A stretch of DNA of 64,000 nucleotides from a virus (Duplodnaviria > Heunggongvirae > Uroviricota > Caudoviricetes): IMG/VR virus record IMGVR_UViG_3300025858_001097; one strand, written 5' to 3'. Both the position numbers and the translations under genes were made by a program. The stretch's first letter is position 1. Each line of letters begins with the position of its first letter. Of this stretch, positions 28,001 to 52,291 are shown piece by piece. The notes beneath the pieces are model-generated. The model ran no database searches and was not told where the DNA came from. It saw only the letters and a list, made by a program, of their open reading frames with translations.

Positions 28001-30764
28001 GAGCCCCGCTTGTTCCTGAAGTACCACCAGTACCACTCGTACCACTTGTACCACTTGTTCCCCCAGTACCACTAGTTCCACTACTACCTGATGTTCCACT
28101 AGTTCCACTACTTCCAGAAGTGCCTGAAGTTCCACCAGTTCCGCTTGTTCCAGATGAACCAGAAGTACCACTACTGCCCTGAGCTCCTGAAGTTCCAGAT
28201 GTACCACCAGTCCCAGATGTTCCACTAGTTCCGCCAGTTCCGCTAGTTCCACTACTTCCTGAAGTACCTGATGTTCCACTACTACCAGATGTTCCCCCCG
28301 TACCTGAAGTTCCGCTAGATCCAGATGTTCCTCCTGACCCGCTTGTACCAGATGTTCCACTTGTACCGCCAGTTCCGCTAGTTCCACTACTACCTTGAGC
28401 TCCACTAGTTCCACTCGTGCCACTAGTTCCTGAAGTTCCACTACTACCTTGAGCTCCACTAGTTCCACTTGTTCCGCTAGATCCGCTAGTTCCACTAGTA
28501 CCGCTTGTGCCCGATGTACCTGAAGTTCCACTAGAACCACTTGTACCGCTGGTTCCACTGATACCAGTCAATCCACTAGTTCCACTTGTTCCTGAGGTGC
28601 CCCCAGTTCCGCTCGTACCGCTAGATCCAGAAGTACCACTACTACCAGAAGTACCTGAAGAACCTGATGTTCCGCTAGTTCCACTACTACCTGATGTTCC
28701 ACTTGTTCCAGACGTACCACTAGTCCCGCTAGTACCTGAAGTTCCACTAGTTCCACTGGATCCTGAAGTTCCCCCAGTGCCACTAGTTCCACTACTACCT
28801 TGAGCTCCACTAGTTCCAGAAGTCCCACTACTACCTGATGTTCCACTTGTTCCAGAAGTACCACTACTACCCGATGTTCCAGATGTACCACCAGTCCCAG
28901 ATGTTCCACTACTTCCACTAGTCCCTGAAGTTCCTGATGTTCCAGACGAACCACTCGTTCCTGATGTTCCTCCTGTACCTGATGTTCCTCCGGTTCCACT
29001 ACTTCCTTGTGCTCCACTAGTTCCACTGGTTCCTGAAGTTCCGCTACTACCTGTTAAACCACTGGTTCCACTAGAACCACTAGTACCACTACTACCACTA
29101 GTTCCTGATGTTCCGCTTGTACCACTGCTGCCAGATGTTCCACTAGTACCACTACTTCCTGAAGTTCCACTAGTACCACTAGTTCCTGATGTTCCGCTTG
29201 TACCACTGCTGCCAGATGTTCCACTAGTACCACTACTTCCTGAAGTTCCACTAGTTCCGCTACTACCACTAGTTCCAGATGTACCACTACTACCTTGTGC
29301 TCCACTAGTTCCACTACTACCAGTTTCTCCTGATGTTCCGCTGGTTCCGCTTGTACCTGAAGTTCCACTGGAACCAAAACCACTAGTACCAGATGTTCCT
29401 AAACCAGCATCAGTATAAGTAAAAACAATAGGTTCGTCTAATATAAAATTGTTATTTGAATCTATCGGTGTAACATCTAATGTCCACCAAGATCCATTAT
29501 CTGTTTTAGCATCTAAATAAAAAGTTGCAAATTTAGTAGAATCGTATTCATCGAATATTCTGATTCTAGACATTCCATTGGCATTAAGACTACTTAACCA
29601 AGAACTTATATCAACACCATCTTTACTTGTCTGACTTATGTATATTTGAGTTACTGAACCGTATACAGTATTATCAAATTTTAAATATCCAGATAGAGGA
29701 TTTGATGCTGTTGTTCCTGTTAAGAAATAATATGGTTGGCTATCACCTCCAAATATTCCAGATAAACCAGAAGATCCAGGAGAACCCATACCTGATGTTC
29801 CACTAGTTCCACTTACACCACTACTTCCATAAAACCATCCATCAACACCAGATGATCCTGAAGTCCCACTACTTCCAGTTCCACCTTGAATATAAGATAT
29901 TAAATACGATTTCCCGTTTGTAGCTGAACCTCCTCCTGATGCGTAAACTGAAAATCCAGTTATTTCATAAAAATTGCCACCTAATCCAAGATTAACACTA
30001 TTAATGGGAACATTATATATGCCTACAACTGAAAGATTTTCTCTCTCTTCTATTTTTAATACGCCTTGAATATTCCACGAACTTAACCAATTATTTACAA
30101 GATCTCCATTCGCGTCCCATTTATTTATTCTTATATTTGTTACAGCCCCTAAATTTGAATTATTTATGTAGAATTTTCCATTCCCAGGAGTTGATGTACT
30201 ATTATCATAAACCCATTTACGCGTAGCTCCACCATAACCACCATCTATACCGCTACTTCCACTAGTTCCACTACTACCTCCGAGTCCTGATGTACCACTT
30301 GATCCACTAGAGCCTGATGTACCTGAAGATCCTGCTTCGCCGCTACTTCCACTTGTTCCGGATGTACCACTTGTGCCACTTGTTCCTCTACCGCTTGTTC
30401 CGCTTGTGCCACCTGTTCCACTCGTACCTCCAGTTCCACTGGTTCCGCCAGTTCCGTCTCTGCCGCTGCTACCACTTGATCCATCTCTACCACTACTACC
30501 ACTTGTTCCATCAGCTCCGCTTGATCCAAAGAAAACACCATCAACACCCGATGTACCGTCTTTTCCAGATGTGCCACTAGTTCCACCTCCACCACTTCCT
30601 GAAGATGTCGCACCAGTACATGGCAAATAATAAATATTTCCCCACTCGTCCTTTTGCCAAAGGCCGCAAAAACCATCTATAAAATCTTGACCTAAGTATA
30701 TATGCCCCGGATCTGGATTACCAATTAGTTTCGGGTCTACTCTTTGGATTTTTTTGAAACTCAT
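22068..30764 (-). CDS. giant collagen-like fibre protein 3 (2898 aa)
   Basis: Conserved N-terminal domain MSFKKIQRVDPKLIGNPDPGHIYLG. About 2250 residues of uninterrupted Gly-X-Y (mostly GTS/GSS, punctuated by GHD/GKQ/GND/GRD triplets). C-terminal globular domain of about 185 aa. Confidence 0.85.
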   Translation of the reverse strand: MSFKKIQRVDPKLIGNPDPGHIYLGQDFIDGFCGLWQKDEWGNIYYLPCTGATSSGSGGGGTSGTSGKDGTSGVDGVFFGSSGADGTSGSSGRDGSSGSSGRDGTGGTSGTGGTSGTGGTSGTSGRGTSGTSGTSGTSGSSGEAGSSGTSGSSGSSGTSGLGGSSGTSGSSGIDGGYGGATRKWVYDNSTSTPGNGKFYINNSNLGAVTNIRINKWDANGDLVNNWLSSWNIQGVLKIEERENLSVVGIYNVPINSVNLGLGGNFYEITGFSVYASGGGSATNGKSYLISYIQGGTGSSGTSGSSGVDGWFYGSSGVSGTSGTSGMGSPGSSGLSGIFGGDSQPYYFLTGTTASNPLSGYLKFDNTVYGSVTQIYISQTSKDGVDISSWLSSLNANGMSRIRIFDEYDSTKFATFYLDAKTDNGSWWTLDVTPIDSNNNFILDEPIVFTYTDAGLGTSGTSGFGSSGTSGTSGTSGTSGETGSSGTSGAQGSSGTSGTSGSSGTSGTSGSSGTSGTSGSSGTSGTSGTSGTSGTSGSSGTSGTSGSSGTSGTSGTSGSSGTSGSSGTSGLTGSSGTSGTSGTSGAQGSSGTGGTSGTGGTSGTSGSSGTSGTSGTSGSSGTSGTGGTSGTSGSSGTSGTSGTSGSSGTSGTSGAQGSSGTSGTGGTSGSSGTSGTSGTSGTSGTSGTSGTSGSSGTSGTSGSSGTSGSSGTSGSSGTSGTGGTSGTSGTSGLTGISGTSGTSGSSGTSGTSGTSGTSGTSGSSGTSGTSGAQGSSGTSGTSGTSGTSGAQGSSGTSGTGGTSGTSGTSGSGGTSGSSGTSGTGGTSGSSGTSGTSGSSGTSGTGGTSGTSGTGGTSGTSGAQGSSGTSGSSGTSGTGGTSGTSGSSGTSGTSGSSGTSGTGGTSGTSGTSGTGGTSGTSGAQGSSGTSGTGGTSGTSGAQGSSGTSGTSGAQGSSGTSGTGGTSGTSGTGGTSGTSGTSGAQGSSGTSGTGGTSGTSGTSGTSGTSGTSGSSGTSGSSGTSGTSGTSGTSGSSGTSGTSGSSGTSGTGGTSGTNGTGGTSGTNGTSGSSGTSGSSGTSGTGGTSGTSGTGGTSGISGTSGTSGAKGSSGTSGTSGTSGTSGSSGTSGTGGTSGTGGTSGTSGVSGSSGTSGTNGTGGTSGTSGTSGTSGSSGTSGTGGTSGTGGTSGTSGTSGTSGHDGSSGTSGTGGTSGTSGTGGTSGTSGATGSSGTSGTGGTSGTGGTSGTSGTSGSSGTSGTSGKQGSSGTSGTGGTSGTSGTSGTSGTGGSSGTSGTGGTSGTSGAGGTSGTSGATGSSGTGGTSGTNGTSGTSGTSGHDGSSGTSGTSGTSGTGGTSGTSGTSGHDGSSGTSGTSGTGGTSGTGGTSGTSGSSGTSGTSGHDGSSGTSGTGGTSGTSGTGGTSGTSGYDGSSGTSGIGGTSGTGGTSGTSGTSGSSGTSGIGGTSGTGGTSGTSGTSGSSGTSGTSGKQGSSGTSGTGGTSGTSGSSGTSGTGGTSGTNGTSGTGGTSGTSGVDGSSGTSGTGGTSGTSGTGGTSGTSGTSGHDGSSGTSGTSGTSGTSGHDGSSGTSGTSGTSGTGGTGGTSGSSGTSGTSGTSGTGGTSGTNGTGGTSGTSGRDGSSGTSGTGGTSGTSGTSGHDGSSGTSGTSGTSGTSGTSGHDGSSGTSGAGGTSGTNGTGGTSGTSGTSGHDGSSGTSGTSGTSGTSGTNGTGGTSGTGGTSGSSGTSGTSGTSGKQGSSGTSGTSGTSGTSGSSGTSGTGGTSGTSGTAGTSGTSGTSGHDGSSGTSGTGGTSGTSGTSGTSGHDGSSGTSGTGGTSGTSGTAGTSGTSGHDGSSGTSGTSGSSGTSGTSGSSGTSGTGGTGGTSGTGGTSGTSGHDGSSGTSGTGGTSGTSGTGGTSGTGGTSGTSGHDGSSGTSGTGGTSGTSGTGGTSGTSGHDGTSGTSGTSGTGGTSGTNGTGGTSGTGGTSGSSGTSGTNGTSGKQGSSGTSGTSGTSGTNGTSGTSGSSGTSGTSGHDGSSGTSGTGGTSGTSGHDGSSGTSGTGGTSGTSGTGGTSGTSGTSGTSGKQGSSGTSGTGGTSGTSGTSGTSGSSGTSGTGGTSGSSGTSGTSGTSGHDGSSGTSGTGGTSGTSGTGGTSGTSGTSGKQGSSGTSGTGGTSGTGGTSGLTGSSGTSGTGGTSGTNGTGGTSGTGGTSGTSGASGSSGTSGTSGKQGSSGTSGTGGTSGTSGTNGTSGSSGTSGTGGTSGTNGTGGTSGTSGNDGSSGTSGTGGTSGTNGTGGTSGTAGTSGHDGSSGTSGTGGTSGTSGHDGSSGTSGTSGTSGTSGHDGSSGTSGTSGTSGTSGTSGTSGTSGHDGSSGTSGTSGHDGTGGTSGTSGTGGTSGTSGHDGSSGTSGTGGTSGTSGHDGSSGTSGTGGTSGTNGTGGTSGTSGTSGKQGSSGTSGTGGTSGTNGTGGTSGTSGTSGHDGSSGTSGTSGNDGSSGTSGTSGNDGSSGTSGTSGTGGTSGTSGNDGSSGTSGTGGTSGTNGTGGTSGTSGTSGRQGSSGTSGTGGTSGTNGTGGTSGTSGNDGSSGTSGTSGHDGTGGTSGTGGTSGTSGTSGKQGSSGTSGTGGTSGTSGTAGITGSSGTSGTGGTSGTSGTGGTSGTSGTSGKQGSSGTSGTSGARGTSGTSGNDGTSGTSGVSGTSGTSGTSGITGSSGTSGIGVTYYYVNDIPPFSWATAWASQSKIDLSTTHGVTGGNGTSGFSVKVNCYYYMDHLMDTGTTSQMTAIDYSLAAMREYRFNVFVDQTGSYTNYVTDTKTVQHSGYWVKYNSETPSPGRHASIDTQGQIGPNDIDAEALIYSSKPYLLLKNNLRSATGWDPSPSYKLQLKYTVDVIEYSYVSANNTEI
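22626..29400 (-). repeat. about 6.8 kb of continuous 9-bp (Gly-X-Y) coding repeat
   Basis: GGN ACN AGN periodicity throughout; approximate bounds. Confidence 0.8.
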
Positions 30765-30771
30765 TTAAAAA

Positions 30772-30813
30772 GAAAAACGGTTTTTTATACCTATATATAA
30801 AAAACCGTTTTTC
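30772..30813 (-). terminator. perfect 15-bp inverted repeat (A5-CGG-T6) with a TATATA-containing loop, between the pncA-like gene and the fibre 3 start
   Basis: gaaaaacggtttttt [atacctatatat] aaaaaaccgtttttc; T-runs on both strands; ends 9 nt before the fibre 3 ATG. Confidence 0.5.
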
Positions 30814-30841
30814 TTTTTGGTGTGGAGTTGTTATGAAGTTA

Positions 30842-31432
30842 TTATCTTTGCATATCAAAGAAAATTTTATATTTAAATATTTCATCGTCAGATAGAAAAA
30901 TATCCAGATCCATTGAATTTATAATCATAACGCCGTCTTTAGCCATATCTTCGACGATGGGAGTCATTTGATCGAAAAAACGTGTTGCATCTACAATCAA
31001 AAAAGTTTTGAAAAATACAGAGCAATCTTTGGCCGTTTCTTTTACATTGAAATCTCCTGGAAGTCCAACTACATAAACTTCTTTTACATCGTTTTTATCT
31101 AAAAAATCATAAAGATTTAAACCATCTTCATTAACTCCAACAAAACCGCTCAAATCTATGGTTTTCTCACCTTTTGTGAAAATAGTAGTTTCTTTTAAAT
31201 CTAAATCTGGATGAAAATCTGCGCCTTCAGTATTTTGAATACAATGAGGAGGAATTTCATCAGTGAAAGATTTATGATTGACTGGATGCCAATCTCTTGA
31301 TGCTACAGTTAAATCAAATTTATCTTTGATTTCGTTAATTATAGGAATAATTCTATCTCCGAAAGGAACAGGATATGTTCCACCGGGCATAAAATCCTTT
31401 TGAACATCAACAATAAATAAAGCTCTTTTCAT
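30842..31432 (-). CDS. isochorismatase-family protein, PncA (nicotinamidase)-like, with the catalytic Cys position apparently substituted
   Basis: IVDVQKDF (Asp), SRDWHP...PPHC metal-binding residues and TKGE (Lys) are present. The segment aligning to the PncA GIATDHCV reads GLPGDFNV. Confidence 0.55.
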   Translation of the reverse strand: MKRALFIVDVQKDFMPGGTYPVPFGDRIIPIINEIKDKFDLTVASRDWHPVNHKSFTDEIPPHCIQNTEGADFHPDLDLKETTIFTKGEKTIDLSGFVGVNEDGLNLYDFLDKNDVKEVYVVGLPGDFNVKETAKDCSVFFKTFLIVDATRFFDQMTPIVEDMAKDGVMIINSMDLDIFLSDDEIFKYKIFFDMQR

Positions 31433-31433
31433 A

Positions 31434-31799
31434 TTATTCTAATCTAATAACACCACTATCAACTTCAAATGTTTTCTTTTCTACCAGAGTGTCTGGCAAA
31501 ACAAAAGTTTTTCCATCCTGTAAAACCATAACAGTTCCTTTCTTTGGAAAATGAACAGGATTTTTGCATGTTTCGCTATGGAATAAAAAGGAATTAAATG
31601 CTGGTTTTAATGAAAGACGTCCATTGGTTTTCAAATAACCCATGTATTCGTGCCCTTCAATTTCATAAACATATAAGGTGATCCCATTCACGACAACATG
31701 TCTTTTAGCATTCATTTCTTTATCAATATCAACTTTCTGTTTACAACCAGTAAACAGAAAAAGACACATTATTACTAATAATCCTAAAAATTTTTTCAT
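31434..31799 (-). CDS. lipoprotein (121 aa)
   Basis: Signal peptide with lipobox LFTGC. Confidence 0.5.
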   Translation of the reverse strand: MKKFLGLLVIMCLFLFTGCKQKVDIDKEMNAKRHVVVNGITLYVYEIEGHEYMGYLKTNGRLSLKPAFNSFLFHSETCKNPVHFPKKGTVMVLQDGKTFVLPDTLVEKKTFEVDSGVIRLE

Positions 31800-31819
31800 T
31801 TTACAAATATATTAATTTT

Positions 31820-32800
31820 TTAATAGTTAAAAAAATTCTTTTTAACTATATCTATAGCTTTTTGTGTTCTTTCTTCCCAATCAGTTCCACTCACAACCTC
31901 CATTTTTAAATTTTTAGATTTAAAAAAGTTGTATTGGAAATCACCAAGATCATCTCTTTTTTCTTTTGAAAGGCGAGTTCCATCTTGTATATAAGGGGCA
32001 TCTTTATCTAAGAAAATGTATAAATCGAATTTGTTTGCTTCTTCAATCCAATTATCGAATACGGGTTCAAGATCGAAGAAAAATTTAGAATAAGATTTTG
32101 TTGTATTTAAATTTGTGTCGCTAAATAATATCCTATTAGCGTGTTTTATTTCTTCGATTATGCCACTAGCATGAGCTTTTCCAACATTCATGATATCTTT
32201 TATAGTTGTATTGTCTGAATGTTCGATTATATCTCTACCCCACTCTTTTACATAAGATGTTTGAAAAACTTTTGACAATTTTTCTGTAAGAACTGTTTTT
32301 CCAGTACTTTCTGTTCCACACAGACATATTTTCTTAACAAAATAAGGTCTTGCTACAAGTGATATATAATCCCAATACTTGAAAGGATTTTCTCTTATCT
32401 GAGTGCCACTTATTGGAACAGTTTCACGTTTTTCGTCAAATATTACATATCCACAATTCATATACTCAGCAACATACTCTGCGTAAGGTTCTGAAGCAAA
32501 CACAACATCTACATTATCTAAAGTTTTACTTATGTGATCAGCCCATAGTTTAGATACTTCCCTATCAGAAACAGAAGTATATGGAAGTTTTACATCGGTA
32601 TATCTTATAATAACTTTATAATCATCCCTATATTTATCCGTAAGCCAGTGAAGTCTCACGTAACCTGGTATGGTTTCTTTTTCGTCATTCATACATAAAA
32701 GAACATATAAGAGATCACATTTCTCTTTAGCAAAATTTATAAGTGCTTCGTGACCTAAAGAAATTGGTTCTGCTTTTAAAATTATCAGTCCTCTTATCAT
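31820..32800 (-). CDS. nadR: NadR-like bifunctional NMN adenylyltransferase / ribosylnicotinamide kinase (no HTH domain)
   Basis: N-terminal cytidylyltransferase-like PISLGHEAL (H/TxGH); central P-loop GTESTGKT of the RNK domain; 326 aa. Confidence 0.7.
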   Translation of the reverse strand: MIRGLIILKAEPISLGHEALINFAKEKCDLLYVLLCMNDEKETIPGYVRLHWLTDKYRDDYKVIIRYTDVKLPYTSVSDREVSKLWADHISKTLDNVDVVFASEPYAEYVAEYMNCGYVIFDEKRETVPISGTQIRENPFKYWDYISLVARPYFVKKICLCGTESTGKTVLTEKLSKVFQTSYVKEWGRDIIEHSDNTTIKDIMNVGKAHASGIIEEIKHANRILFSDTNLNTTKSYSKFFFDLEPVFDNWIEEANKFDLYIFLDKDAPYIQDGTRLSKEKRDDLGDFQYNFFKSKNLKMEVVSGTDWEERTQKAIDIVKKNFFNY

Positions 32801-33636
32801 TCAAATATTTTTTTTATATTTTTGAAGTTGTTATTTATAATCAGATTATAATCATAATATTTCTTGGATTCATTCATTTTAATTTCATTAATATTTCTTT
32901 TCTTATTCCACAAATAACTTGATTTTATTTCAAAGACTATGTTTGTATTTTTTATTCTATAGTCTATATAATAATTATGTTCTTTTCCGCTATCATCAAA
33001 ATAACTTATACGAGGTCCTCTTTCAATCAAATCAAATTTACCGATGGATTCAACAAATTTTAAAAATTTTAATTCATAACTGCTTTGATAATCTATGCCA
33101 TTATATTGTTTTATTCTTATTCTTCCCCATCCACTATTAGGTTTTCTTCTCCCTTCTTTAAAAGCTTTAATGGCTGCATCACTCATTCTTTTTTTAATAT
33201 CATCAGATAGTTTAGTCCCCTTTCTTTTTTCTGCCATTTTTATCCATCCTTGTTTTTCTTTTATTTTTTGTTTAGAAGATTCCCAAGTAAAAGGGTTTCC
33301 GTTCTCATTCAACCATTTTTTAAGCCCTATTTTAGCATTATTGTTTGGTTTTCCAAAATTTCCGTTTCTATCTCCTTTATTTTGACATTTGGTACAAAAA
33401 TGTTCATTTTTATCTGGTTTTAGATCTCTTATTCTTCTTTCGAATATTACACCACAATCATCACATTTTACTTTTATAAATTTTATTCTATAATCTCTTT
33501 TTGATTTTAGTAATGACCAATGAACTAAAAAAGGTTCGTTTATATTTGGTCTATAACCGAGTGTTTTTTTCCATCTGTCGGGTTGAGTGTAATGTGTTAA
33601 GACAACTTCAACGTTTTCATATTCTTTTATATACAT
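32797..33636 (-). CDS. putative homing endonuclease (zinc finger, NUMOD3-like motif and PD-(D/E)XK-like C-terminus)
   Basis: CDDCG...CTKC; KGTKLSDDIKKRMSDAAIKAFKEG resembles NUMOD3; C-terminal D...E.K pattern (IDYRI...IVFEIKS). Confidence 0.4.
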   Translation of the reverse strand: MYIKEYENVEVVLTHYTQPDRWKKTLGYRPNINEPFLVHWSLLKSKRDYRIKFIKVKCDDCGVIFERRIRDLKPDKNEHFCTKCQNKGDRNGNFGKPNNNAKIGLKKWLNENGNPFTWESSKQKIKEKQGWIKMAEKRKGTKLSDDIKKRMSDAAIKAFKEGRRKPNSGWGRIRIKQYNGIDYQSSYELKFLKFVESIGKFDLIERGPRISYFDDSGKEHNYYIDYRIKNTNIVFEIKSSYLWNKKRNINEIKMNESKKYYDYNLIINNNFKNIKKIFE

Positions 33637-33702
33637 AAGAACTTTTTATTCTTATATATTAAAAACTAAAAATCACTTTTAACCTTTTCATTGTGGTCAT
33701 TT

Positions 33703-34128
33703 TCATTCACTCCAATCTTCTTCACCATACGGATCCAAATCATTAATTATTCTTTTATTGAGTTTATATTCTCTTTTATGTTCTCTCTTTTTTTCTTTCC
33801 ATTCACTATAACTTCCACAATGATGATGTCTTATCATATTACATATATCTGGGAAACTTCTAACTACTTTAGTTGGCAAACTATATATATTTATATCTGA
33901 TGATGCACAATTATCTAATAGATGTAATATATAATCAATAACATAATCTTCATTTTGATCTTTATAATGTTTTAAAAATTTTATAATGTCATCGACATTC
34001 TTCCAGCTTAACTCGATTTTTTTTAAATCTAATATAGCTTGTGCGGCTTCTTCGCGTGTTAAATCTGTTCGATAACCATATTTATCGAAATCTTTAAAAT
34101 CTTCAAATTTAGATAAATTACTTATCAT
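33703..34128 (-). CDS. hypothetical protein with a C-terminal DPYGEEDW motif
   Basis: 141 aa. The motif is shared with 60039..60482 and with the disrupted ORF at 63661..63881. Confidence 0.5.
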   Translation of the reverse strand: MISNLSKFEDFKDFDKYGYRTDLTREEAAQAILDLKKIELSWKNVDDIIKFLKHYKDQNEDYVIDYILHLLDNCASSDINIYSLPTKVVRSFPDICNMIRHHHCGSYSEWKEKKREHKREYKLNKRIINDLDPYGEEDWSE

Positions 34129-34131
34129 ATG

Positions 34132-34452
34132 TCATTTAACTTTTTTAGTTTCATAAATATAACACTCATACCATCTTGAAGATACTCCATATTCACATAA
34201 TACATTTTCAAGAGATTGTTTGGGGAATTTAGTAAAAGATCCTTTTATTTCCAAGAACCAAGAATCTGGCACATATTTTTCTTTTATCCATTCTCTTGGA
34301 TCTTTTTCCCATCCATTTAATATATTATACCAACCTTCACTTTTATATTTATTTGTGAGTTCTCCAACGAGAATTTCTTCGCCATTATTATGTTTAAGAA
34401 TTATAATATCTTCAATTTCAATTTCGTCAAAACTTACTTTTTTCAATTTCAT
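34132..34452 (-). CDS. hypothetical protein (106 aa)
   Basis: ORF track. Confidence 0.5.
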   Translation of the reverse strand: MKLKKVSFDEIEIEDIIILKHNNGEEILVGELTNKYKSEGWYNILNGWEKDPREWIKEKYVPDSWFLEIKGSFTKFPKQSLENVLCEYGVSSRWYECYIYETKKVK

Positions 34453-35018
34453 TGTTGTTTTTTATATATTTTTGTCCAATTAATTAACCCGTAGACGGCT
34501 ACAAAAGTTATCACAATATATTCTAAAGATACTAAATATATTCCTTTTGAATAGAATAACCACACGCTTAACATATCCAATAATATCCATAGAAACCATC
34601 CATATAAATATTTTTTAGATAGAAATACCACAGCAAATATACTCATTGTTGTGACAATAGCATCTAGTAAAGCAAATTGTGGTTGAAAGAATCCCAATAC
34701 ATAACCTCCTAATAAACAAAGAATTAGTATAACAATTCCAGTTATTATTACATTTTTTAATGAAGATATTTTTATCTTTTTACCTATATCTCTTCCCCAA
34801 TATGTCCAACCGTATATTGAAACAATCGTAAAAAAGACTTGAAGCGCAACTTGTCCAAACAATTGATTTTTTAAAAAAAGTATAAAGAAAAATATCTGTC
34901 CGATTATACCAACAGGCCAATTCCAAATTTTGTTTCTAGCAGCCAAAACTACTGCAGCAAAAGAAAACAATGTTCCAAATAATTCTAAATAAGAAAGTGT
35001 ATATCCTAGTAATACCAT
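34449..35018 (-). CDS. pnuC: nicotinamide riboside / NMN transporter PnuC
   Basis: Multi-TM protein with a PnuC-like N-terminal region (FGTLFSFAAVVLAARNKIWNWPVGIIG...IYGWTYW). Confidence 0.75.
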   Translation of the reverse strand: MVLLGYTLSYLELFGTLFSFAAVVLAARNKIWNWPVGIIGQIFFFILFLKNQLFGQVALQVFFTIVSIYGWTYWGRDIGKKIKISSLKNVIITGIVILILCLLGGYVLGFFQPQFALLDAIVTTMSIFAVVFLSKKYLYGWFLWILLDMLSVWLFYSKGIYLVSLEYIVITFVAVYGLINWTKIYKKQQ

Positions 35019-35473
35019 TATTTATTTATCTTAATATACTTACCAATAATAGCTGATTTATCCAACACATGTCCATCAATTTCTTTCAAAAGTTCGGCTT
35101 TAGTATATCCTTCTTTGTTCAAAAAACAATCTAAAGCAAATATCTTAAAGAAATATCTATGAACACCATTTGGAGGGCATGGACCTTTATAATCAAATTG
35201 TTTATAGTCATTTTTTCCAAATAAAATTGGTGGTTGTGAATCTCCTTTTGTAAAGTGTTCATTAAACATAGTTGTAGTTGGTGGAATATTATATACAATC
35301 CAATGTACCCAATCTCCAACTGGAGCGTCGGGATCATCAACTAATAAAGCTAGACTAACAGTCGCTTTTGGAAAACCACTCCATTCTAGCTGAGGTGATA
35401 CATTTACTCCCTCGCAAGTAAATTTGGAAGGAATAAATTCACCATGTCTAAACGCGTTACTTCTTATTTCCAT
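35018..35473 (-). CDS. YbhB/YbcL-family phosphatidylethanolamine-binding (PEBP) protein
   Basis: LVDDPDAPVGDWVHW signature. Confidence 0.8.
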   Translation of the reverse strand: MEIRSNAFRHGEFIPSKFTCEGVNVSPQLEWSGFPKATVSLALLVDDPDAPVGDWVHWIVYNIPPTTTMFNEHFTKGDSQPPILFGKNDYKQFDYKGPCPPNGVHRYFFKIFALDCFLNKEGYTKAELLKEIDGHVLDKSAIIGKYIKINK

Positions 35474-37541
35474 CTTTTTCTTTTAACATTATTTTTAATT
35501 GAGCAAAACAATTAAATGGTACTCCTACAAAATAAAGTGGTTGATCTCCACTCCAATTTAATTGACCGCTCGCGAAATATTTTTGATTTGTTATATTATT
35601 AAAATAGATATTAAAATCTATCCAGTTCCAACTAACACCCAATTTTCCATTTAAAGTGTAATAAGAATCAATAGTTTCGGCTAAATCCGTCCCCAACCAT
35701 TTTGTATATCCGATGATACTTCCATCTTGATATCTACAAGATAAACCTACTACAAACCATTTATATTTATAATGACCTTCTATGTTACCTATCCATTTTG
35801 GAGATAATATTGGTTTATTTATTTGATTATTAGATTGTTTTATACCACAATCATTATACGAACCATTTACACCAATTCCTAAACCAAAATCCCATTTGTA
35901 TTTGAAATCTGCTTCAATTCCTCTTCTATAACTCTGTTTTACGTTATCGTGTAATGGAACTCCACTCATACCTATTTTACCATTTAAAACAATTTCATTA
36001 CTAAAATTCATATGGAAAAAATTGAAATTTATATAAAAATTTTTTTCTACTACACGAATACCAAGTTCATTATCTCGCGATTGTTCGGAATTAAGATTGT
36101 TATAAACAGCGTTACCAAGAGTATCACATGGTAAGTAGTTATACCCATTTAATACATCATTTCTTGATGGTTCACGATTATTTACACCATAACTATAATA
36201 AAACACAGTTCTATTTAAATTGTAATCTATTCCTAAATCATAATTTATAAAATTCCAATGTAAATCTGGCATAACAACATTATAATGAGGAGTAAAGTTC
36301 TCATCATAAGAAACATCGCCTTTATATTTAAAATCTGTATATCTATATTGAACATCGCCAAAAAGATTCAGATCTTTCCAAACATTATATTTAACTTTCA
36401 AATAACTACTTATTTCATTTCTATATCCAGTGTTTGTGTATTGATATCCATAAATATCATTATTCCCTATATGTTCTCTATCATATGTAAAACCGTGAGT
36501 TCCTAAATCGAAATAAAATCCTTTTATATTTTTTGAAAAATTTAAATATCCACCATACCAATTAGATTTAAAAGTATATTTGTCTATACCATAATTAATA
36601 TTATTCTGTAAGAAATTCTGTAAATCAAAAGTATAATAGCCGTGAAGATAATTATAATAAAGAGCATAATTCAATTTCGTTTCTTTATTGAAATTTATTA
36701 TGTGGTGAAATTGAACGTGTGTCTGAGCAAAATTATCTTGTTCTTTGTCTGTCGCACCGTTTGTTTTCCTATCTTCTCGAACTTTTTCCAACGGAACGCC
36801 CAACCACGCTAACTGATTATTTTGGGCTCCTATAAAAGATACTATTTTGAATGTATGTTTTTTTACATTAAAATATGAATTTAAAAATAAACTCTGTCCT
36901 TTATTACTGGAATGATATTTATATCCTTTTGTTTCTATATCTGATAATTGAAAGTAATAACCGCCACGTTTAAAATTTTGATCGACCTCTGCTCCAATAT
37001 TAAAACTATTGAAAGATCCGTATCCAAATTTAGCCGTCGCTTTATCATAAGTAGGGAAATGGGAATCAAAATTTAAACCACCTCCAAAACAAGATGATCC
37101 ATTTTTTGTTAAACTATTACCTCTTTGTATTTGAATCAAATCTAATGAATTAAAGAAATCTGGATAGTTTGAAAAATACAATCCTTGATCTTCGGGCTCA
37201 TTCATTGGCACTCCGTTTAGAGTGAAATTAATACGAGTTTGATCAATTCCTCTCATACGAATATAAGAATATCCATAGGGGCTACCAGCATCAGAATAAG
37301 ATGTGATAGAGGGTGTTGTAATAAGAATATCAGAAGGCTCTTGCCCGTGATATTTAAAATTTATTTCGTTCTTATTTAAATTTGTAAAAGTAATAGGAGT
37401 AAGATGATTCGCCTTGTATGGCGCTGTAATATTAACCTCTTTTAATTCTATCGTGTCCTTACCAATATGATAAATAGTGTCTTGACTATAACCCCCGATA
37501 GCGAAGATAAATAGAATAATAATAAATAATGTTCTTTTCAT
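35457..37541 (-). CDS. TonB-dependent outer-membrane receptor
   Basis: Signal peptide ending GGYSQD; plug-domain motifs (IQIQRGN..., RGIDQTRINFTLNGVPMN); long beta-barrel region; 694 aa. Confidence 0.7.
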   Translation of the reverse strand: MKRTLFIIILFIFAIGGYSQDTIYHIGKDTIELKEVNITAPYKANHLTPITFTNLNKNEINFKYHGQEPSDILITTPSITSYSDAGSPYGYSYIRMRGIDQTRINFTLNGVPMNEPEDQGLYFSNYPDFFNSLDLIQIQRGNSLTKNGSSCFGGGLNFDSHFPTYDKATAKFGYGSFNSFNIGAEVDQNFKRGGYYFQLSDIETKGYKYHSSNKGQSLFLNSYFNVKKHTFKIVSFIGAQNNQLAWLGVPLEKVREDRKTNGATDKEQDNFAQTHVQFHHIINFNKETKLNYALYYNYLHGYYTFDLQNFLQNNINYGIDKYTFKSNWYGGYLNFSKNIKGFYFDLGTHGFTYDREHIGNNDIYGYQYTNTGYRNEISSYLKVKYNVWKDLNLFGDVQYRYTDFKYKGDVSYDENFTPHYNVVMPDLHWNFINYDLGIDYNLNRTVFYYSYGVNNREPSRNDVLNGYNYLPCDTLGNAVYNNLNSEQSRDNELGIRVVEKNFYINFNFFHMNFSNEIVLNGKIGMSGVPLHDNVKQSYRRGIEADFKYKWDFGLGIGVNGSYNDCGIKQSNNQINKPILSPKWIGNIEGHYKYKWFVVGLSCRYQDGSIIGYTKWLGTDLAETIDSYYTLNGKLGVSWNWIDFNIYFNNITNQKYFASGQLNWSGDQPLYFVGVPFNCFAQLKIMLKEKDGNKK

Positions 37542-38056
37542 TTGTGATATTTTTCGTTAAATTTAAAACTCCATTCTGGATTTGGCCTGTATTTAGTGTT
37601 TAGAAAATATTTATATACATATTTCCAATCCTTTTTTGGATTAAATCCAGCCTTGTCTTCCCAAAGAGAATTGAAATATGGTTTTTTGTCATAAAATCCA
37701 AAACTTCCTTTAGCGTCAGAAATTTCTGGATTATCATTCACGTACTTAAAATATATACCATCTTCTTCGAATTGTTTCATATACTTTTCAATCTCGTTTT
37801 TATAAGAAGATGTGAATATAAACAATATCATATCACGGCGGTTCTTTGTAAGATATTGTAAAGTTTCTTTGGCATAAGGATAGTAATTTATTCTAAATTC
37901 ACCTTCACCTTTTTCAGATTTACGATAATCTGGCTCGGATATAACTCCATGAATATCAAAGCAATGATAGGTTTCATACCACTGCCTTTCTTTGGCGTGT
38001 TTAAACATTTTATCCATCCAAACAAGTAAAGATGGTTTATAGCAAGGATTTAGCAT
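37538..38056 (-). CDS. hypothetical protein, weakly HAD / 5'(3')-nucleotidase-like
   Basis: CFDIHGVI resembles HAD motif I (DxDGV) but with His at the second Asp position. Confidence 0.35.
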   Translation of the reverse strand: MLNPCYKPSLLVWMDKMFKHAKERQWYETYHCFDIHGVISEPDYRKSEKGEGEFRINYYPYAKETLQYLTKNRRDMILFIFTSSYKNEIEKYMKQFEEDGIYFKYVNDNPEISDAKGSFGFYDKKPYFNSLWEDKAGFNPKKDWKYVYKYFLNTKYRPNPEWSFKFNEKYHK

Positions 38057-38193: not shown

Positions 38194-38487
38194 ATGAACA
38201 GATTGTATAGAGCATCTAAAGATCGCATTTTCGGTGGAGTTTGCGGAGGAATTGGGAAGTATTTCGATATTGATCCAGTTATTATAAGACTTATTTGGCT
38301 ATTGTTTGCCCTTTGTGCTGGCTTTGCTATTTTCATTTATATTATAGCATGGATAATAATTCCAAATGAACCTTTGGAAATAAAACCAGAAAAACCTATT
38401 AAAGAAAAGGAAGTTAAAGAAGACCCAATAGAAGAGCAGACCTTTGAAAAGCCAAGAGCTAGAAAAAAGGGAAATAATACAAAATAA
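38194..38487 (+). CDS. PspC-domain membrane protein
   Basis: LYRASKDRIFGGVCGGIGKYFDIDPVIIRL followed by a TM helix is the classic PspC domain. Confidence 0.7.
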   Translation: MNRLYRASKDRIFGGVCGGIGKYFDIDPVIIRLIWLLFALCAGFAIFIYIIAWIIIPNEPLEIKPEKPIKEKEVKEDPIEEQTFEKPRARKKGNNTK

Positions 38488-41791: not shown

Positions 41792-43009
41792 TTAAAAATT
41801 TTTTTTGAGTATGTACTCACCAGTTTCTTCGTCTTTCATCATATCGTCTTTCAAATATATTTTTGAACCCAATCTGACAAATTCGTGTTCGGGTGTTACA
41901 TAATCATCTCTATATTTTAATGGAACAGCATCATTTTTGTGTACATAGACATTATCATATTCCGACCAAATCAGAAAATCACGATAAACCATTCTACCCA
42001 AATAATCTATTCCGAAATTATAATTACTATCTACTAGTGGTTCTCCGTTAGCCATAACCAAAGCTAACCAACCAGTTTTATTAAATTTTTCAACGTCACT
42101 TGTAAGAATCGCTTCTTCTGGATTATAAAATTGTAAAGTATCTACATATGGATAATGTTCGTGATTAATTTTATTCAGATTTACTGTCATTATAATTTTT
42201 TCTTCTTTCCCTTTATTCACAACTGGAATAACACTTCCTCCATACATTTGTTTACTTTTATAAATATAATCATTTCTTATTGCATAATCTATAAAAAGTT
42301 TAATTTGCCAATCATAAGTGGTGTATATCCTATCCATAAAAATTCTTCCAGCCGGCTCATCCAGATACCATAAATTGGCTCTTCCGTATATCTTATCTTC
42401 ATTTGGATCTTTCAGTATTAACATTTTCATTTTATCGGGATTCTTCTCGTATAAAGAAAAGAATATTTTAGAATCATCATATCTCATACAAGATCTCTGT
42501 AGTTGACCCGTGGCTTCCCCACTATACATTCTCCCACTATAATATTTAATAATTTCTTTTCCTTCAATTACAGAAAAATTTTCTACCTCACCTTTTAAAG
42601 CTACTTTATAATTCTTTATAAATTCTTCTATTTGCTGTTGAGTGAATTTATTTCCAAAAATTCTAGTTATAAACCTAGACAATCTCTGTTTTTGACGATA
42701 ATGCACCCAGCAATAATTTATACCTTCTTGATCTTTTCCTATAGATTTATATTTATCTAATATTTGTTTTGCTTTATTTGATGCTGTATAAGAAACAAAA
42801 TCATCCTTTTCTTCTTCCACATCCACAAAAGAAATATCATATTTTTTATTATCATATTGAATATTCATTAGTTCATCTAGAATGGGATCTTCTGGCATAT
42901 CGGCCAAAACTTCCTTAAAAGTGTGAGAAAAAATCATGGGTAGATTATTCTCATCTTTCGATTCATTCAAAAATGATTTAAAACCGTATAATATCATTAA
43001 TAAAATCAA
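41792..43009 (-). CDS. paralogous family member B
   Basis: RSCMRY, NPDKMKMLIL, YGRANLWYLDEP, FMDRIY and YPYVDTL blocks. Confidence 0.6.
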   Translation of the reverse strand: MILLMILYGFKSFLNESKDENNLPMIFSHTFKEVLADMPEDPILDELMNIQYDNKKYDISFVDVEEEKDDFVSYTASNKAKQILDKYKSIGKDQEGINYCWVHYRQKQRLSRFITRIFGNKFTQQQIEEFIKNYKVALKGEVENFSVIEGKEIIKYYSGRMYSGEATGQLQRSCMRYDDSKIFFSLYEKNPDKMKMLILKDPNEDKIYGRANLWYLDEPAGRIFMDRIYTTYDWQIKLFIDYAIRNDYIYKSKQMYGGSVIPVVNKGKEEKIIMTVNLNKINHEHYPYVDTLQFYNPEEAILTSDVEKFNKTGWLALVMANGEPLVDSNYNFGIDYLGRMVYRDFLIWSEYDNVYVHKNDAVPLKYRDDYVTPEHEFVRLGSKIYLKDDMMKDEETGEYILKKNF

Positions 43010-51347: not shown

Positions 51348-51349
51348 TA

Positions 51350-52291
51350 TTATTTGTTGTTAATGAATAACTTACTCAATGATTTATGATTTACTATGTT
51401 GCGAATAGCTCTTGATAAAAGAGTTGATGCAGAAACCACCGTAATCTTACTGCTATTCTCTTTTAACGGAACGGTATCTGTTACAACTAGCTCGGTTAAA
51501 GCTGATTTATTTACGTTATCATAAGCGTCTCCACTTAAAATAGGATGAGTAACAACCGCTCTTACGCTGTTTGCTCCTCTTTCCATCATCAATTTGGCTG
51601 ATCTACAGAGAGTTCCACCTGTATCTATAATATCATCAACAATCACAACATCCTTGCCTTTGACATCACCTATGAGAATCATTTCATCTATTTTATTTTC
51701 TTTTGGTCTGTGTTTGTAACAAAGAACCATTTCGCATCCAAGACTTTCTGATAAATATTTTGCCTTTTTTGTTCCACCAGTATCAGGAGCTGCTACTACA
51801 AGATTTTGAAGACCCAATTCTTTTAGATAAGGAACAAACATATAAGAAGCTAGGAGCATATCTACAGGAATGTTGAAGAATCCACCAATTTGATCGGCGT
51901 GAAGGTCAATAGTAACGATTCTAGTCGCGCCGGCGGTTTCTAAAAAGTTGGCAACTAATTTAGCTCCAATGCCGCATCTTGGTTTATCTTTTCTATCCTG
52001 TCTTCCATAACCGAAGTATGGAACAACAGCAATGATTCTTGCAGCGGACGCTTTCTTTGCAGCATCAATCATCTGGAACAACTCCCAATAATTATCAATA
52101 GGAGCATATCCCGACTGAATGATGAACACTGAACGTCCTCTAATATTTTCTTTGAAAACTGGTTGGAATTCGCCGTCAGAAAACTTTGTAAGTTCTACCT
52201 GACCCAATCCCATTTTAAGATTTTTGGCTACATTTTCAGCAAGCGCTTTACTAGCTGAGCCAGCGAAGATCTTTACTTCACTTTTATCCAT
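51350..52291 (-). CDS. prs: ribose-phosphate pyrophosphokinase (PRPP synthetase) homologue
   Basis: DLHADQIGGFF and VVIVDDIIDTGGTL PRPP-binding loop; 313 aa. Confidence 0.85.
   Translation of the reverse strand: MDKSEVKIFAGSASKALAENVAKNLKMGLGQVELTKFSDGEFQPVFKENIRGRSVFIIQSGYAPIDNYWELFQMIDAAKKASAARIIAVVPYFGYGRQDRKDKPRCGIGAKLVANFLETAGATRIVTIDLHADQIGGFFNIPVDMLLASYMFVPYLKELGLQNLVVAAPDTGGTKKAKYLSESLGCEMVLCYKHRPKENKIDEMILIGDVKGKDVVIVDDIIDTGGTLCRSAKLMMERGANSVRAVVTHPILSGDAYDNVNKSALTELVVTDTVPLKENSSKITVVSASTLLSRAIRNIVNHKSLSKLFINNK

What the first reader, a model, noticed from the sequence alone, without database searches (positions are those of the whole stretch)
30842..37541. NAD-precursor uptake and salvage island including an outer-membrane TonB-dependent receptor: candidate counter-defence or metabolic-takeover module
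A contiguous minus-strand set of genes: PncA-like, lipoprotein, NadR-like (NMNAT plus RNK), an endonuclease insertion, two unknown genes, PnuC, PEBP/YbhB, and a TonB-dependent receptor. PnuC plus NadR is the canonical nicotinamide-riboside import and two-step conversion to NAD. A TonB-dependent receptor next to PnuC would complete transport across a Gram-negative outer membrane. If this is a phage, carrying a complete outer-membrane to cytoplasm route to NAD is notable. Phage-encoded NAD-reconstitution pathways have recently been shown to overcome NAD-depleting defences (Thoeris, DSR, SIR2-type), but versions based on import via PnuC/NadR/TBDR are not what has been described, to my knowledge.
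Basis: partly seen in the sequence, partly recalled or inferred. Interest (0 to 1): 0.7.

Follow-up and report, generated by a model that had tools for sequence, protein, structure and literature searches.

The report
Megaphage NAD-precursor uptake module with outer-membrane transporter
A giant phage of Bacteroidota carries a copy of its hosts' three-part system for taking up a vitamin B3 precursor across both membranes and turning it into NAD, so it adds an outer-membrane transporter to the recently proven two-gene phage "NARP3" NAD-rebuilding pathway.

Summary
All nine minus-strand genes are present at the stated coordinates, and the HMM calls hold for PncA-like, NadR (NMNAT+RNK, no HTH), PnuC, PEBP and a full-length TonB-dependent transporter (TBDR). 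The window is phage: at least 24 kb is collinear with the complete 735 kb megaphage LR756501. The TBDR is tied to NAD. In 74 of the 80 closest bacterial loci (all Bacteroidota-type) it is followed by nadR, and 60 of 80 have the exact TBDR-PnuC-NadR order, sometimes with NrtR, NadV or Prs. The trio also occurs in the 642 and 635 kb megaphages, and 44 of 48 IMG/VR contigs with a full-length TBDR also carry nadR. PnuC+NadR alone is no longer new: it was shown experimentally in August 2026 to be the counter-defence pathway NARP3. I found no paper that describes the outer-membrane component. The one paper that mentions a megaphage TBDR called it SusC, for carbohydrate uptake. In this phage the sister lineages' Preiss-Handler arm is gone: PncB and NadE are absent and PncA has lost its catalytic Cys. 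PEBP and two small ORFs are lineage-specific insertions. The endonuclease gene is mobile. Verdict: a new variant of a known kind. The counter-defence role is plausible but untested.

The parts
37538..38056 (-). HAD-fold protein (172 aa) with an invariant D-x-H-G motif in place of DxDxT. It is the first gene of the block, its end overlaps the TBDR start by 4 nt, and its substrate is unknown.
   Evidence: phrog_1238 3e-10 and a weak NIF hit. 71% identical in L001, L007 and L009, where it lies between PncB and NadE. More than 228 metagenomic relatives at 60-77% identity. AF2 pLDDT 84. Weak HAD-phosphatase fold matches, best BT_0820/2obb.
35457..37541 (-). Full-length TonB-dependent outer-membrane transporter (694 aa): signal peptide, TonB-box-like segment DTIELKEVNI, plug and barrel. 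Member of a Bacteroidota subfamily that is genomically dedicated to the pnuC-nadR operon.
   Evidence: Pfam Plug and barrel. AF2 pLDDT 85.5, pTM 0.85. Foldseek TM 0.80/0.84 to PqqU, followed by Fiu, YncD, FhuA and FecA. 64 invariant columns shared with 66 homologues. Adjacency statistics.
35018..35473 (-). PEBP/YbhB-family protein (151 aa, no signal peptide). A lineage-specific insertion in the variable slot between TBDR and PnuC.
   Evidence: PF01161 1e-40 and TIGR00481 above cutoff. No counterpart in L001, L007, L009 or any of 131 related loci. Found in only 7 of 50,697 phage records and in none of the megaphages.
34449..35018 (-). PnuC-family inner-membrane nicotinamide riboside transporter (189 aa).
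   Evidence: PF04973 1e-44, TIGR01528 92 bits (cutoff 42), phrog_1880. Matches N. mucosa PnuC 4QTN. 51-63% identical to the phage relatives and 35-38% to bacterial operon copies.
34132..34452 (-). Unknown ORF (106 aa), specific to this lineage.
   Evidence: No family. No homologue in the related loci.
33703..34128 (-). Unknown ORF (141 aa), specific to this lineage.
   Evidence: No family. No homologue in the related loci.
32797..33636 (-). Free-standing endonuclease-like gene (279 aa) inserted immediately upstream of nadR, with a 4-nt overlap. Probably a mobile homing-type element.
   Evidence: phrog_15137 7.5e-8 and a weak DUF7487 hit. The same gene sits at the same site in L007/L093 (68%), and in L095, L097, L102, L105 and L119. 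A 27-aa remnant is present in LR756501.
31820..32800 (-). NadR-type bifunctional enzyme without HTH (326 aa): an N-terminal NMNAT domain with an unusual LKAEPISLGH motif, and a C-terminal ribosylnicotinamide kinase domain with an intact Walker A (GTESTGKT).
   Evidence: phrog_3462 4.5e-74; TIGR01526 and PRK08099. Matches E. coli NadR 8X7F at 1.6e-36 and the NARP3 enzyme Bas30_86 (9X6F) at 1.9e-31. Motif survey.
31434..31799 (-). Small lipoprotein (121 aa, lipobox LFTG|C), an orphan restricted to this phage clade. Role unknown; it could be an envelope accessory of the uptake system.
   Evidence: Sequence. 54-57% identical in L001 and L007. Only 4 relatives in 5.8 billion proteins. Absent from the bacterial operons.
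30842..31432 (-). PncA-like isochorismatase-fold protein (196 aa) that lacks the catalytic cysteine (GDFNV against GDYCV). The Asp, the Lys and the metal-binding D/H/H residues are retained. Probably not an active nicotinamidase.
   Evidence: Alignment to P. horikoshii PncA 1ILW. Alignment with L001, L007 and L009, all of which keep Cys. The AAT codon is identical in the independent assembly L006.
30771..30814 (.). Perfect 20-bp-stem hairpin between the PncA stop and the next gene. A terminator-like 3' boundary of the block.
38194..38487 (+). PspC-domain gene on the opposite strand. It marks the conserved upstream border of the module in all clade members.
   Evidence: PF04024 1e-24. The same position and orientation in L006, L007 and L009.
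51350..52291 (-). Canonical PRPP synthetase (Prs), 14 kb away. Possibly related, because prs follows nadR in 8 of 80 bacterial operons. It is not part of the block here.
   Evidence: NF002320 404 bits (cutoff 297). Bacterial contexts. Collinear with LR756501.

Best explanation
The window is part of a Mahaphage-type megaphage that infects Bacteroidota. The block 30842-38056 is a phage copy of the Bacteroidota TBDR-PnuC-NadR operon.

Proposed mechanism:
1. During infection the phage expresses its own TonB-dependent transporter. The host Sec and BAM machineries place it in the outer membrane, and the host TonB-ExbBD complex energises it. It brings a scarce pyridine precursor into the periplasm, most likely nicotinamide riboside and possibly NMN or NAD.
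2. PnuC moves nicotinamide riboside across the inner membrane.
3. The RNK domain of NadR phosphorylates it to NMN, which traps it in the cell.
4. The NMNAT domain of NadR, or a host enzyme, adenylates NMN to NAD+.

This is NARP3 (PnuC+NadR) extended by an outer-membrane tier, free of the host's NrtR repression. The benefit is a refilled NAD+ pool during a long megaphage infection, including when NADase-type defences drain it.

In this lineage the second arm found in the sister phages (PncA-PncB-NadE, Preiss-Handler) has been dismantled: PncB and NadE are deleted and PncA has lost its nucleophile. A mobile endonuclease, PEBP and two ORFans have been inserted.

Shown: gene identities, phage origin, the TBDR-nadR/pnuC linkage in bacteria and in phages, an intact TBDT fold, and the loss of the PncA Cys.

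Inferred: the TBDR substrate, expression and assembly in the host, activity of the variant NMNAT motif, and the fitness role.
For: - Family assignments.
- Phage origin: window 30.8-38 kb is 67.5% identical and 47-55 kb is 71% identical to LR756501, and the two matches are collinear. Module proteins are 55-73% identical in the same order. Tail-fibre PHROGs and homing endonucleases are present. The >634 kb phages are predicted to infect Bacteroidetes (PMC7162821).
- TBDR-NAD link: NrtR-(NadV)-TBDR-PnuC-NadR-(Prs) in three genomes. 74/80 bacterial loci have nadR downstream and 60/80 have the exact trio.
- The trio is in LR756502 and LR745206. 44/48 IMG/VR contigs carry nadR and 36/48 carry pnuC beside the TBDR.
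- Sister phages place NadE and PncB in the same block.
- TBDR integrity.
- PnuC+NadR has been proven to import NR, rebuild NAD+ and defeat Sir2-HerA (PMC13464706). The window's NadR matches that enzyme's structure 9X6F at 1.9e-31.
Against: - No experiment exists on any member of this TBDR subfamily, so its substrate rests on gene neighbourhood only.
- The closest solved folds carry PQQ or siderophores at 12-16% identity, which says nothing about specificity.
- The window's NadR has a unique NMNAT motif (LKAEPISLGH; G->L, F->A, H->S). A K10A/F11A mutant of the NARP3 enzyme is impaired. Against this, MKA/MGA variants recur in other viral lineages.
- NadR and TBDR score below NCBIfam equivalog cutoffs.
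- PnuC and NadR are separated by 1.65 kb of inserted genes.
- It is unknown whether an outer-membrane barrel can be made and become useful within one infection cycle.
- A counter-defence role is extrapolated from enterobacterial phages.
Confidence: 0.65

Rival explanations
1. Same machinery, different purpose. The module is a general auxiliary metabolic module. It tops up NAD+ for the phage's own NAD-consuming metabolism during a long megaphage infection, or makes the phage independent of the host's NrtR-repressed operon. It is not a dedicated counter-defence.
For: Jumbo phages of Bacteroidota commonly carry whole NAD synthesis clusters together with NAD-consuming enzymes (PMC11662467). The sister phages add PncB, NadE and PncA, a broad salvage repertoire and not a minimal anti-defence cassette. 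The window neighbourhood is full of metabolic genes such as Prs, PPK2, thioredoxin and peptidases.
Against: PnuC+NadR alone suffices to defeat Sir2-HerA in E. coli (PMC13464706). The two roles are not mutually exclusive. No data from Bacteroidota hosts exist.
Confidence: 0.35
2. The TBDR transports something unrelated, such as carbohydrate ('SusC', as published for megaphages) or a metal chelate, and lies next to pnuC by accident.
For: A megaphage TBDR was annotated as SusC for carbohydrate uptake (PMC9723777). JGI auto-annotation calls the homologues 'iron complex outermembrane receptor'. The best fold matches are cofactor and siderophore transporters.
Against: 74/80 nearest bacterial homologues and 44/48 viral ones are next to nadR, often under NrtR. 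The protein is 694 aa with no SusC-type CarboxypepD_reg extension and no SusD partner. Its start and stop codons overlap the neighbouring genes of the block.
Confidence: 0.07
3. In this particular phage the module is decaying and no longer works. It is a relic being broken up by insertions.
For: PncB and NadE are lost. PncA has Cys->Asn. The NadR NMNAT motif is unique among 118 homologues. An endonuclease, PEBP and two ORFans are inserted.
Against: All ORFs are intact, with coupled start and stop codons. The TBDR keeps every invariant column of its family. PnuC scores above the equivalog cutoff. The RNK Walker A and the ISGTQIR motif are intact. G->M/L with F->A recurs in independent viral lineages, which suggests a tolerated, compensated variant. 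The sequence is identical in an independent assembly.
Confidence: 0.1
4. The window is an ordinary bacterial (Bacteroidota) chromosome segment carrying the housekeeping TBDR-pnuC-nadR operon.
For: The trio is a common chromosomal operon in Bacteroidota.
Against: At least 24 kb is collinear with a complete circular 735 kb phage genome. Collagen-like tail-fibre proteins and several homing/HNH endonucleases are present. There is no NrtR. The TBDR is only about 42% identical to any bacterial copy but 55-66% identical to those on phage contigs. GC content is about 30% with near-uniform strand usage.
Confidence: 0.03

Closest known systems
NARP3 (phage PnuC-like Bas30_87 plus HTH-less NadR-like Bas30_86; Sci Adv 2026, PMC13464706)
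   Same: Same two core proteins: a PnuC-family NR transporter and a NadR with NMNAT and RNK domains and no HTH. The window's NadR matches the Bas30_86 structure 9X6F at 1.9e-31. Both genes are phage-encoded, on the same strand and in one block.
   Different: This module has an additional full-length TonB-dependent outer-membrane transporter upstream. It comes from megaphages of Bacteroidota, not enterobacterial phages. The genes are separated by inserted ORFs. A HAD-fold protein, a lipoprotein and a Cys-less PncA accompany them, and the sister phages also carry PncB and NadE. The NMNAT motif is a variant. No functional data exist.
Bacteroidota chromosomal NrtR-(NadV)-TBDR-PnuC-NadR-(Prs) operon (seen here; I found no paper describing the TBDR member)
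   Same: Same gene order TBDR->PnuC->NadR. Proteins are 35-42% identical. The TBDR subfamily is the same, with 64 invariant columns.
   Different: The phage copy lacks the NrtR regulator and NadV. It is flanked by phage-specific genes. It has diverged far from every sampled bacterial copy and sits in a viral-only clade in an NJ tree (no bootstrap support).
'NAD-jumbo phage' NAD biosynthetic gene clusters (Microbiome 2024, PMC11662467) and the KVP40 NadV/NatV salvage pathway
   Same: Large phages, often of Bacteroidota, cluster pnuC, nadR, pncA, pncB and nadE. The sister phages of this window have exactly such a cluster.
   Different: That paper does not mention an outer-membrane component. The window itself has lost PncB and NadE and has no NadV.
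Haemophilus influenzae NAD uptake route (OmpP2 porin, NadN, lipoprotein e(P4), PnuC, NadR); from my own knowledge and PMC4081464
   Same: A multi-tier envelope route that ends in PnuC and NadR and includes a lipoprotein.
   Different: There, outer-membrane passage is by a porin and periplasmic nucleotidases make the NR. Here an active TonB-dependent transporter is used and no nucleotidase is recognisable. The lipoprotein is unrelated to e(P4).
PqqU/YncD, a TonB-dependent transporter for the cofactor PQQ (PDB 9C4O, 6V81)
   Same: Closest solved fold (TM 0.80/0.84). It is a precedent for TonB-dependent import of a small (~330 Da) organic cofactor.
   Different: Only about 15% sequence identity, so nothing can be inferred about substrate.

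Membership tests
NARP3 | PnuC-family NR transporter encoded by the phage | tested here: met
   PF04973 1e-44; TIGR01528 92 bits against a cutoff of 42; phrog_1880; matches 4QTN.
NARP3 | NadR-like enzyme with NMNAT and RNK domains and no HTH domain | tested here: met
   326 aa. It aligns to residues 67-406 of full-length NadR (PRK08099), so the HTH is absent. AAA_28 1.8e-21 plus CTP_transf_like. 9X6F (Bas30_86) 1.9e-31.
NARP3 | Intact catalytic motifs in both NadR domains | tested here: inconclusive
   The RNK Walker A (GTESTGKT) and the ISGTQIR motif are intact. The NMNAT motif is LKAEPISLGH, against GK[FY]xPxHxGH in 74/74 bacterial copies. MKA/MGA and H->T/Q variants occur in other viral copies. 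The K10A/F11A mutant of Bas30_86 is impaired.
NARP3 | Two genes forming one cassette | tested here: inconclusive
   Same strand and same block, but separated by three inserted ORFs (1.65 kb). In relatives L001 and L009 the two genes are adjacent or separated only by small ORFs.
NARP3 | Imports NR, regenerates NAD+ and rescues the phage from NAD-depleting defence | not testable with these tools
   Needs uptake assays, NAD measurements and infection assays.
TonB-dependent transporter (TBDT) | N-terminal plug domain inside a 22-strand beta-barrel | tested here: met
   PF07715 4.9e-9 and PF00593 5.5e-20. AF2 pLDDT 85.5. Full-length superposition on PqqU, Fiu, FhuA and FecA, TM 0.70-0.84.
TonB-dependent transporter (TBDT) | Signal peptide and TonB box at the N-terminus | tested here: inconclusive
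   A hydrophobic N-terminus MKRTLFIIILFIFAIGGYSQ and a conserved segment DTIELKEVNI (D29 and E35 conserved in >=90% of 67 homologues) are visible. No dedicated predictor or binding test was run.
SusC-like TBDT (published label for the megaphage TBDR) | About 1000 aa with an N-terminal CarboxypepD_reg-like extension and an adjacent SusD-like lipoprotein | tested here: not met
   694 aa with only Plug and barrel domains. No SusD-like neighbour: the neighbours are HAD, PEBP and PnuC.
NAD-precursor TBDR subfamily of Bacteroidota (defined here by context) | Encoded immediately upstream of pnuC and/or nadR | tested here: met
   74/80 bacterial and 44/48 viral loci. The window has TBDR-PEBP-PnuC.
NAD-precursor TBDR subfamily of Bacteroidota (defined here by context) | Transports NR, NMN or NAD | not testable with these tools
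   No member has been characterised, and none was found in the literature searches.
Nicotinamidase PncA | Catalytic triad Asp-Lys-Cys | tested here: not met
   Asp9 and Lys are present, but the Cys position is Asn (GDFNV). P. horikoshii PncA and the three sister phages have Cys. Confirmed in a second assembly.
Nicotinamidase PncA | Metal-binding Asp/His/His | tested here: met
   The DWHPVNH...PPHC motif aligns with DWHPENH...PRHC of 1ILW.
PEBP/YbhB | PBP domain | tested here: met
   PF01161 1e-40; TIGR00481 124 bits against a cutoff of 58.
NARP1 / NARP2 | Adps plus Namat (NARP1), or NAMPT/NadV plus NMNAT (NARP2) | tested here: not met
   No NAMPT-family protein in the window. The Prs at 51350-52291 scores as canonical PRPP synthetase (404 bits).

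The most novel reading that the evidence does not exclude
Megaphages of Bacteroidota encode a three-tier import pathway that extends NARP3-type NAD+ rebuilding to hosts whose outer membrane limits precursor entry. The tiers are an outer-membrane TonB-dependent transporter, inner-membrane PnuC and cytoplasmic NadR. On this reading the TBDR subfamily, which is also present in at least 567 bacterial species, would be the first dedicated outer-membrane transporter for a pyridine-nucleotide precursor. It would also be a rare case of a phage building a functional host outer-membrane active transporter during infection. The published 'SusC/carbohydrate' reading of the megaphage TBDR would be wrong.
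Probability: 0.55. Interest if true: 0.72.

Novelty: new variant of a known kind. Interest (0 to 1): 0.6.

Why it matters
If the TBDR does import NR, NMN or NAD, three things follow.

1. An orphan TBDR subfamily that is widespread in Bacteroidota gains a function, and vitamin B3 joins B12 and thiamine as cofactors taken up by TonB-dependent transport in this phylum.
2. Phage NAD-reconstitution strategies (NARP1-3) would reach the outer membrane. This shows how the two-gene NARP3 logic is adapted to hosts with a restrictive outer membrane.
3. A phage-encoded outer-membrane active transporter would show that megaphages remodel the host cell surface for nutrient acquisition. That bears on gut and environmental Bacteroidota ecology and on cross-feeding of NAD precursors.

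The window's own copy also gives a natural experiment. It keeps the uptake arm and has lost the Preiss-Handler arm.

Tried and rejected
- **Bacterial-chromosome origin:** rejected on collinearity with LR756501 and on phage hallmark genes.
- **NARP1/NARP2 partners:** I looked for NadV/NAMPT, Nudix, NadE and PncB across the whole window and found none. Prs is canonical, not Adps-like.
- **NadR NMNAT domain as degenerate:** I first read it that way, then softened this after the survey showed recurring MKA/MGA and H->T/Q variants in other viral lineages.
- **PEBP as a conserved module member:** rejected. It is absent from all relatives and from the megaphages.
- **Lipoprotein function by homology:** it is an orphan with 4 relatives and is absent from the bacterial operons. 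I did not model it.
- **HAD-fold protein:** no PDB sequence match. The fold search gave only generic capless HAD phosphatases, so no substrate could be assigned.
- **Promoter scan:** not above the shuffled expectation (54 found against 50.0 ± 5.7), so uninformative.
- **tRNA scan:** none found.
- **NJ tree of TBDRs:** it has no bootstrap support and is midpoint-rooted with fast-evolving viral branches, so I did not use it to decide between one and several captures.
- **Literature searches for a TBDR-PnuC-NadR description:** they found nothing relevant. The library holds only open-access papers.

Full report
**1. What is there**

The minus strand of 30842-38056 holds ten closely packed ORFs.

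| Coordinates | Call |
|---|---|
| 30842-31432 | PncA-like isochorismatase-fold protein |
| 31434-31799 | lipoprotein (lipobox LFTGC, no family) |
| 31820-32800 | NadR-type NMNAT+RNK enzyme without HTH (phrog_3462 4.5e-74) |
| 32797-33636 | endonuclease-like protein (phrog_15137) |
| 33703-34128, 34132-34452 | two ORFs with no family |
| 34449-35018 | PnuC (PF04973 1e-44; TIGR01528 above cutoff) |
| 35018-35473 | PEBP/YbhB protein (PF01161 1e-40) |
| 35457-37541 | TonB-dependent receptor (Plug plus barrel) |

One more gene belongs to the block. A HAD-fold ORF at 37538-38056 overlaps the TBDR start by 4 nt.

Five junctions overlap by 1-17 nt. A perfect 20-bp-stem hairpin at 30771-30814 follows PncA. 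The sigma-70 scan was no better than shuffled sequence.

**2. Phage or chromosome**

The block is 67.5% identical at DNA level to LR756501/LR756503. That is the complete 735 kb 'uncultured phage' of Al-Shayeb et al. 2020. That paper placed its largest genomes in the Mahaphage clade and predicted Bacteroidetes hosts for the phages above 634 kb (PMC7162821).

Window 47-55 kb matches the same record, collinearly, at 71% identity. Flanking proteins of unknown function are 67-73% identical and in the same order.

The window also has collagen-like tail-fibre proteins, homing/HNH endonucleases, about 30% GC and almost uniform strand usage. An independent ENA assembly (93 kb contig) is 99.99% identical.

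The 'ordinary bacterial locus' refutation does not apply.

**3. The module in relatives**

Three further large contigs carry the same block, with TBDR identities of 54-66%. They are LR756501 (L001), a 172 kb ENA contig that is also an IMG/VR UViG (L007/L008/L093), and a 161 kb contig (L009).

In all three the order is:

PspC (opposite strand) - PncB - HAD-fold - small ORF(s) - NadE - TBDR - (variable slot) - PnuC - (endonuclease in L007) - NadR - lipoprotein (not recognisable in L009) - PncA - collagen-like gene.

So the ancestral module combined a Preiss-Handler arm (PncA, PncB, NadE) with an uptake arm (TBDR, PnuC, NadR).

The window differs in several ways:
- It lacks PncB and NadE, both at the syntenic place and anywhere in its 64 kb.
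- Its PncA-like protein has Asn (AAT) where *P. horikoshii* PncA and all three sister phages have the catalytic Cys. The Asp, the Lys and the metal ligands are kept. The second assembly has the same codon.
- PEBP replaces the unrelated genes that sister phages have between TBDR and PnuC. PEBP is absent from the megaphages.
- The two small ORFs have no relatives in the compared loci.

In the NJ tree the window pairs with L093, and that pair is sister to LR756501 plus L009. Parsimony therefore says the window's lineage lost the Preiss-Handler arm.

**4. Is the TBDR really part of NAD metabolism?**

This was the crux, and the answer comes from neighbourhoods. The nearest named homologues (~42% identity) are Bacteroidota TBDRs. 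Three chromosomes show these arrangements:
- NrtR-Nudix-NadV-TBDR-PnuC-NadR-Prs
- TBDR-PnuC-NadR
- NrtR-TBDR-PnuC-NadR

A scan of 185,579 species genomes found 567 relatives. Among the best 80 loci:
- 74 have nadR just downstream.
- 61 have pnuC adjacent.
- 60 have the exact trio.
- 14 show NrtR, 13 NadV and 8 Prs within the flanks.

A Bacteroidota genome has many TBDRs and one nadR, so this is far beyond chance. The figure applies to the closest 80 relatives only.

On the viral side:
- The 642 kb and 635 kb megaphages have the contiguous trio.
- Of 48 IMG/VR contigs with a full-length TBDR of this subfamily, 44 also have nadR and 36 have pnuC. Nine have PncB, seven PncA and five NadE. These contigs reach 483 kb.

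**5. Integrity of the parts**

*TBDR.* The AF2 model is confident (pLDDT 85.5, pTM 0.85). It superposes over its full length on solved TonB-dependent transporters. The best match is the PQQ importer PqqU/YncD (TM 0.80/0.84), followed by Fiu, FhuA and FecA. The protein keeps all 64 columns that are invariant across 67 homologues, including a conserved N-terminal TonB-box-like segment. At 694 aa it has no SusC-type extension and no SusD partner.

*NadR.* The kinase Walker A and the ISGTQIR motif are intact. The NMNAT signature is LKAEPISLGH, against GK[FY]xPxHxGH in all 74 bacterial copies. The NARP3 paper found a K10A/F11A mutant impaired. However, MKA/MGA variants (Gly to a bulky residue together with Phe to Ala) recur in three other viral loci, and H->T/Q occurs in others. 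I therefore treat the variant as probably tolerated and its activity as unproven.

*HAD-fold protein.* It is the most conserved protein of the block (60-77% identity over more than 200 relatives). It has an invariant D-x-H-G motif. Fold matches are only generic.

*Lipoprotein.* It is a clade orphan.

**6. Mechanism proposed**

See the best explanation. An outer-membrane TBDT, energised by host TonB, feeds PnuC. NadR kinase traps NR as NMN. NadR NMNAT, or a host enzyme, makes NAD+.

The phage copy lacks NrtR. Expression is therefore presumably set by the phage programme and not by the host's ADP-ribose-responsive repressor; NrtR biology is from PMC2330246.

Shown: identities, linkage, fold, phage origin. 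Inferred: substrate, assembly in the host, activity, benefit.

**7. Comparison with what is known**

- *PnuC+NadR in phages.* This was suggested as a further NAD reconstitution route in 2024. It was catalogued in 'NAD-jumbo phages', many of them of Bacteroidota. In August 2026 it was demonstrated as NARP3: NR import, NAD+ regeneration and escape from Sir2-HerA. The window's NadR matches the NARP3 enzyme structure 9X6F at 1.9e-31.
- *The outer-membrane tier.* None of these papers mentions TonB or the outer membrane.
- *The megaphage TBDR.* The only mention I found called it SusC and proposed carbohydrate uptake (PMC9723777). The evidence here contradicts that reading for this subfamily. I could not confirm that the gene cited in LR745206 is the one in L012, though it is the TBDR found there.
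- *The bacterial operon.* I found no description of the TBDR-PnuC-NadR operon, within the limits of an open-access library.

**8. Verdict**

This is a new variant of a known kind: a NARP3-type module extended by a dedicated outer-membrane transporter. It is conserved across the largest known phages. In this window it is caught in a derived state, with the Preiss-Handler arm lost, a Cys-less PncA, and mobile and lineage-specific insertions.

Interest is moderate to high. The core pathway is already published. The outer-membrane tier, and the bacterial TBDR subfamily it points to, appear undescribed and are directly testable.

Noticed in passing
window 32797-33636; also L093, L095, L097, L102, L105, L119, and a remnant at L001 13971-14051: The endonuclease-like gene sits immediately upstream of nadR in at least 7 phage loci from several divergent TBDR lineages (33-68% identity). 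This looks like a free-standing homing endonuclease specific for the pnuC/nadR junction. The nadR alleles next to it often have non-canonical codons for the GKFxPxHxGH motif. That might be target-site recoding that gives immunity, but this is untested.
   Followed up: partly
window 22068-30764: A 2898-aa ORF made almost entirely of G-T/S-S-G collagen-like triplets, with 45-50% GC in a ~30% GC genome. The N-terminus is shared with the other collagen-like tail-fibre ORFs (5602-9372, 11759-15766). The repeat region differs between independent assemblies.
   Followed up: no
window 38497-39951, 41792-43009, 43036-43992, 44038-45456: Four paralogous genes of unknown function, about 30% identical to each other, with no Pfam or PHROG hit. 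The first is 73% identical to a protein of LR756501 at the syntenic place.
   Followed up: no
window 37538-38056: A HAD-fold protein with an invariant D-x-H-G in place of the DxDxT nucleophile motif. It is the most conserved protein in the neighbourhood (more than 228 metagenomic relatives, none annotated). In the sister phages it always lies between PncB and NadE. Its best fold match is the uncharacterised Bacteroides protein BT_0820 (2obb).
   Followed up: partly
window 50487-52291: A PPK2-family polyphosphate kinase and a canonical PRPP synthetase lie side by side, collinear with LR756501. In some Bacteroidota, prs is the last gene of the TBDR-pnuC-nadR operon.
   Followed up: partly
window 39971-41467 and 45585-46733: Two paralogous M28-like peptidases (phrog_4191, about 1e-62) on opposite strands. 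An M42 aminopeptidase lies at 469-1587.
   Followed up: no
window 38194-38487 (+): A PspC-domain membrane protein on the opposite strand, conserved at the upstream border of the NAD module in every clade member.
   Followed up: no
L001 14641-15258; L007 12313-12882: In the sister phages the slot between TBDR and PnuC, which PEBP occupies in the window, holds a different protein of 189-205 aa with a DFDNT (HAD-type) motif and no Pfam hit, plus an 80-aa Cys-rich ORF. This slot is a hotspot for gene replacement.
   Followed up: no
L028, L036, L037, L040, L048, L055, L067, L071, L072, L080, L083, L084, L086, L090: In 14 of the bacterial loci, nadR follows the TBDR directly and no pnuC is detectable between or after them within the flank. 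This is either a variant operon or a very divergent transporter.
   Followed up: no
window 61385-62275, 47253-47921, 57616-59268: Further mobile-endonuclease genes: DUF7487 (8e-16), HNH, and a 550-aa homing endonuclease (phrog_3339 1e-127). This is a high load for 64 kb.
   Followed up: no
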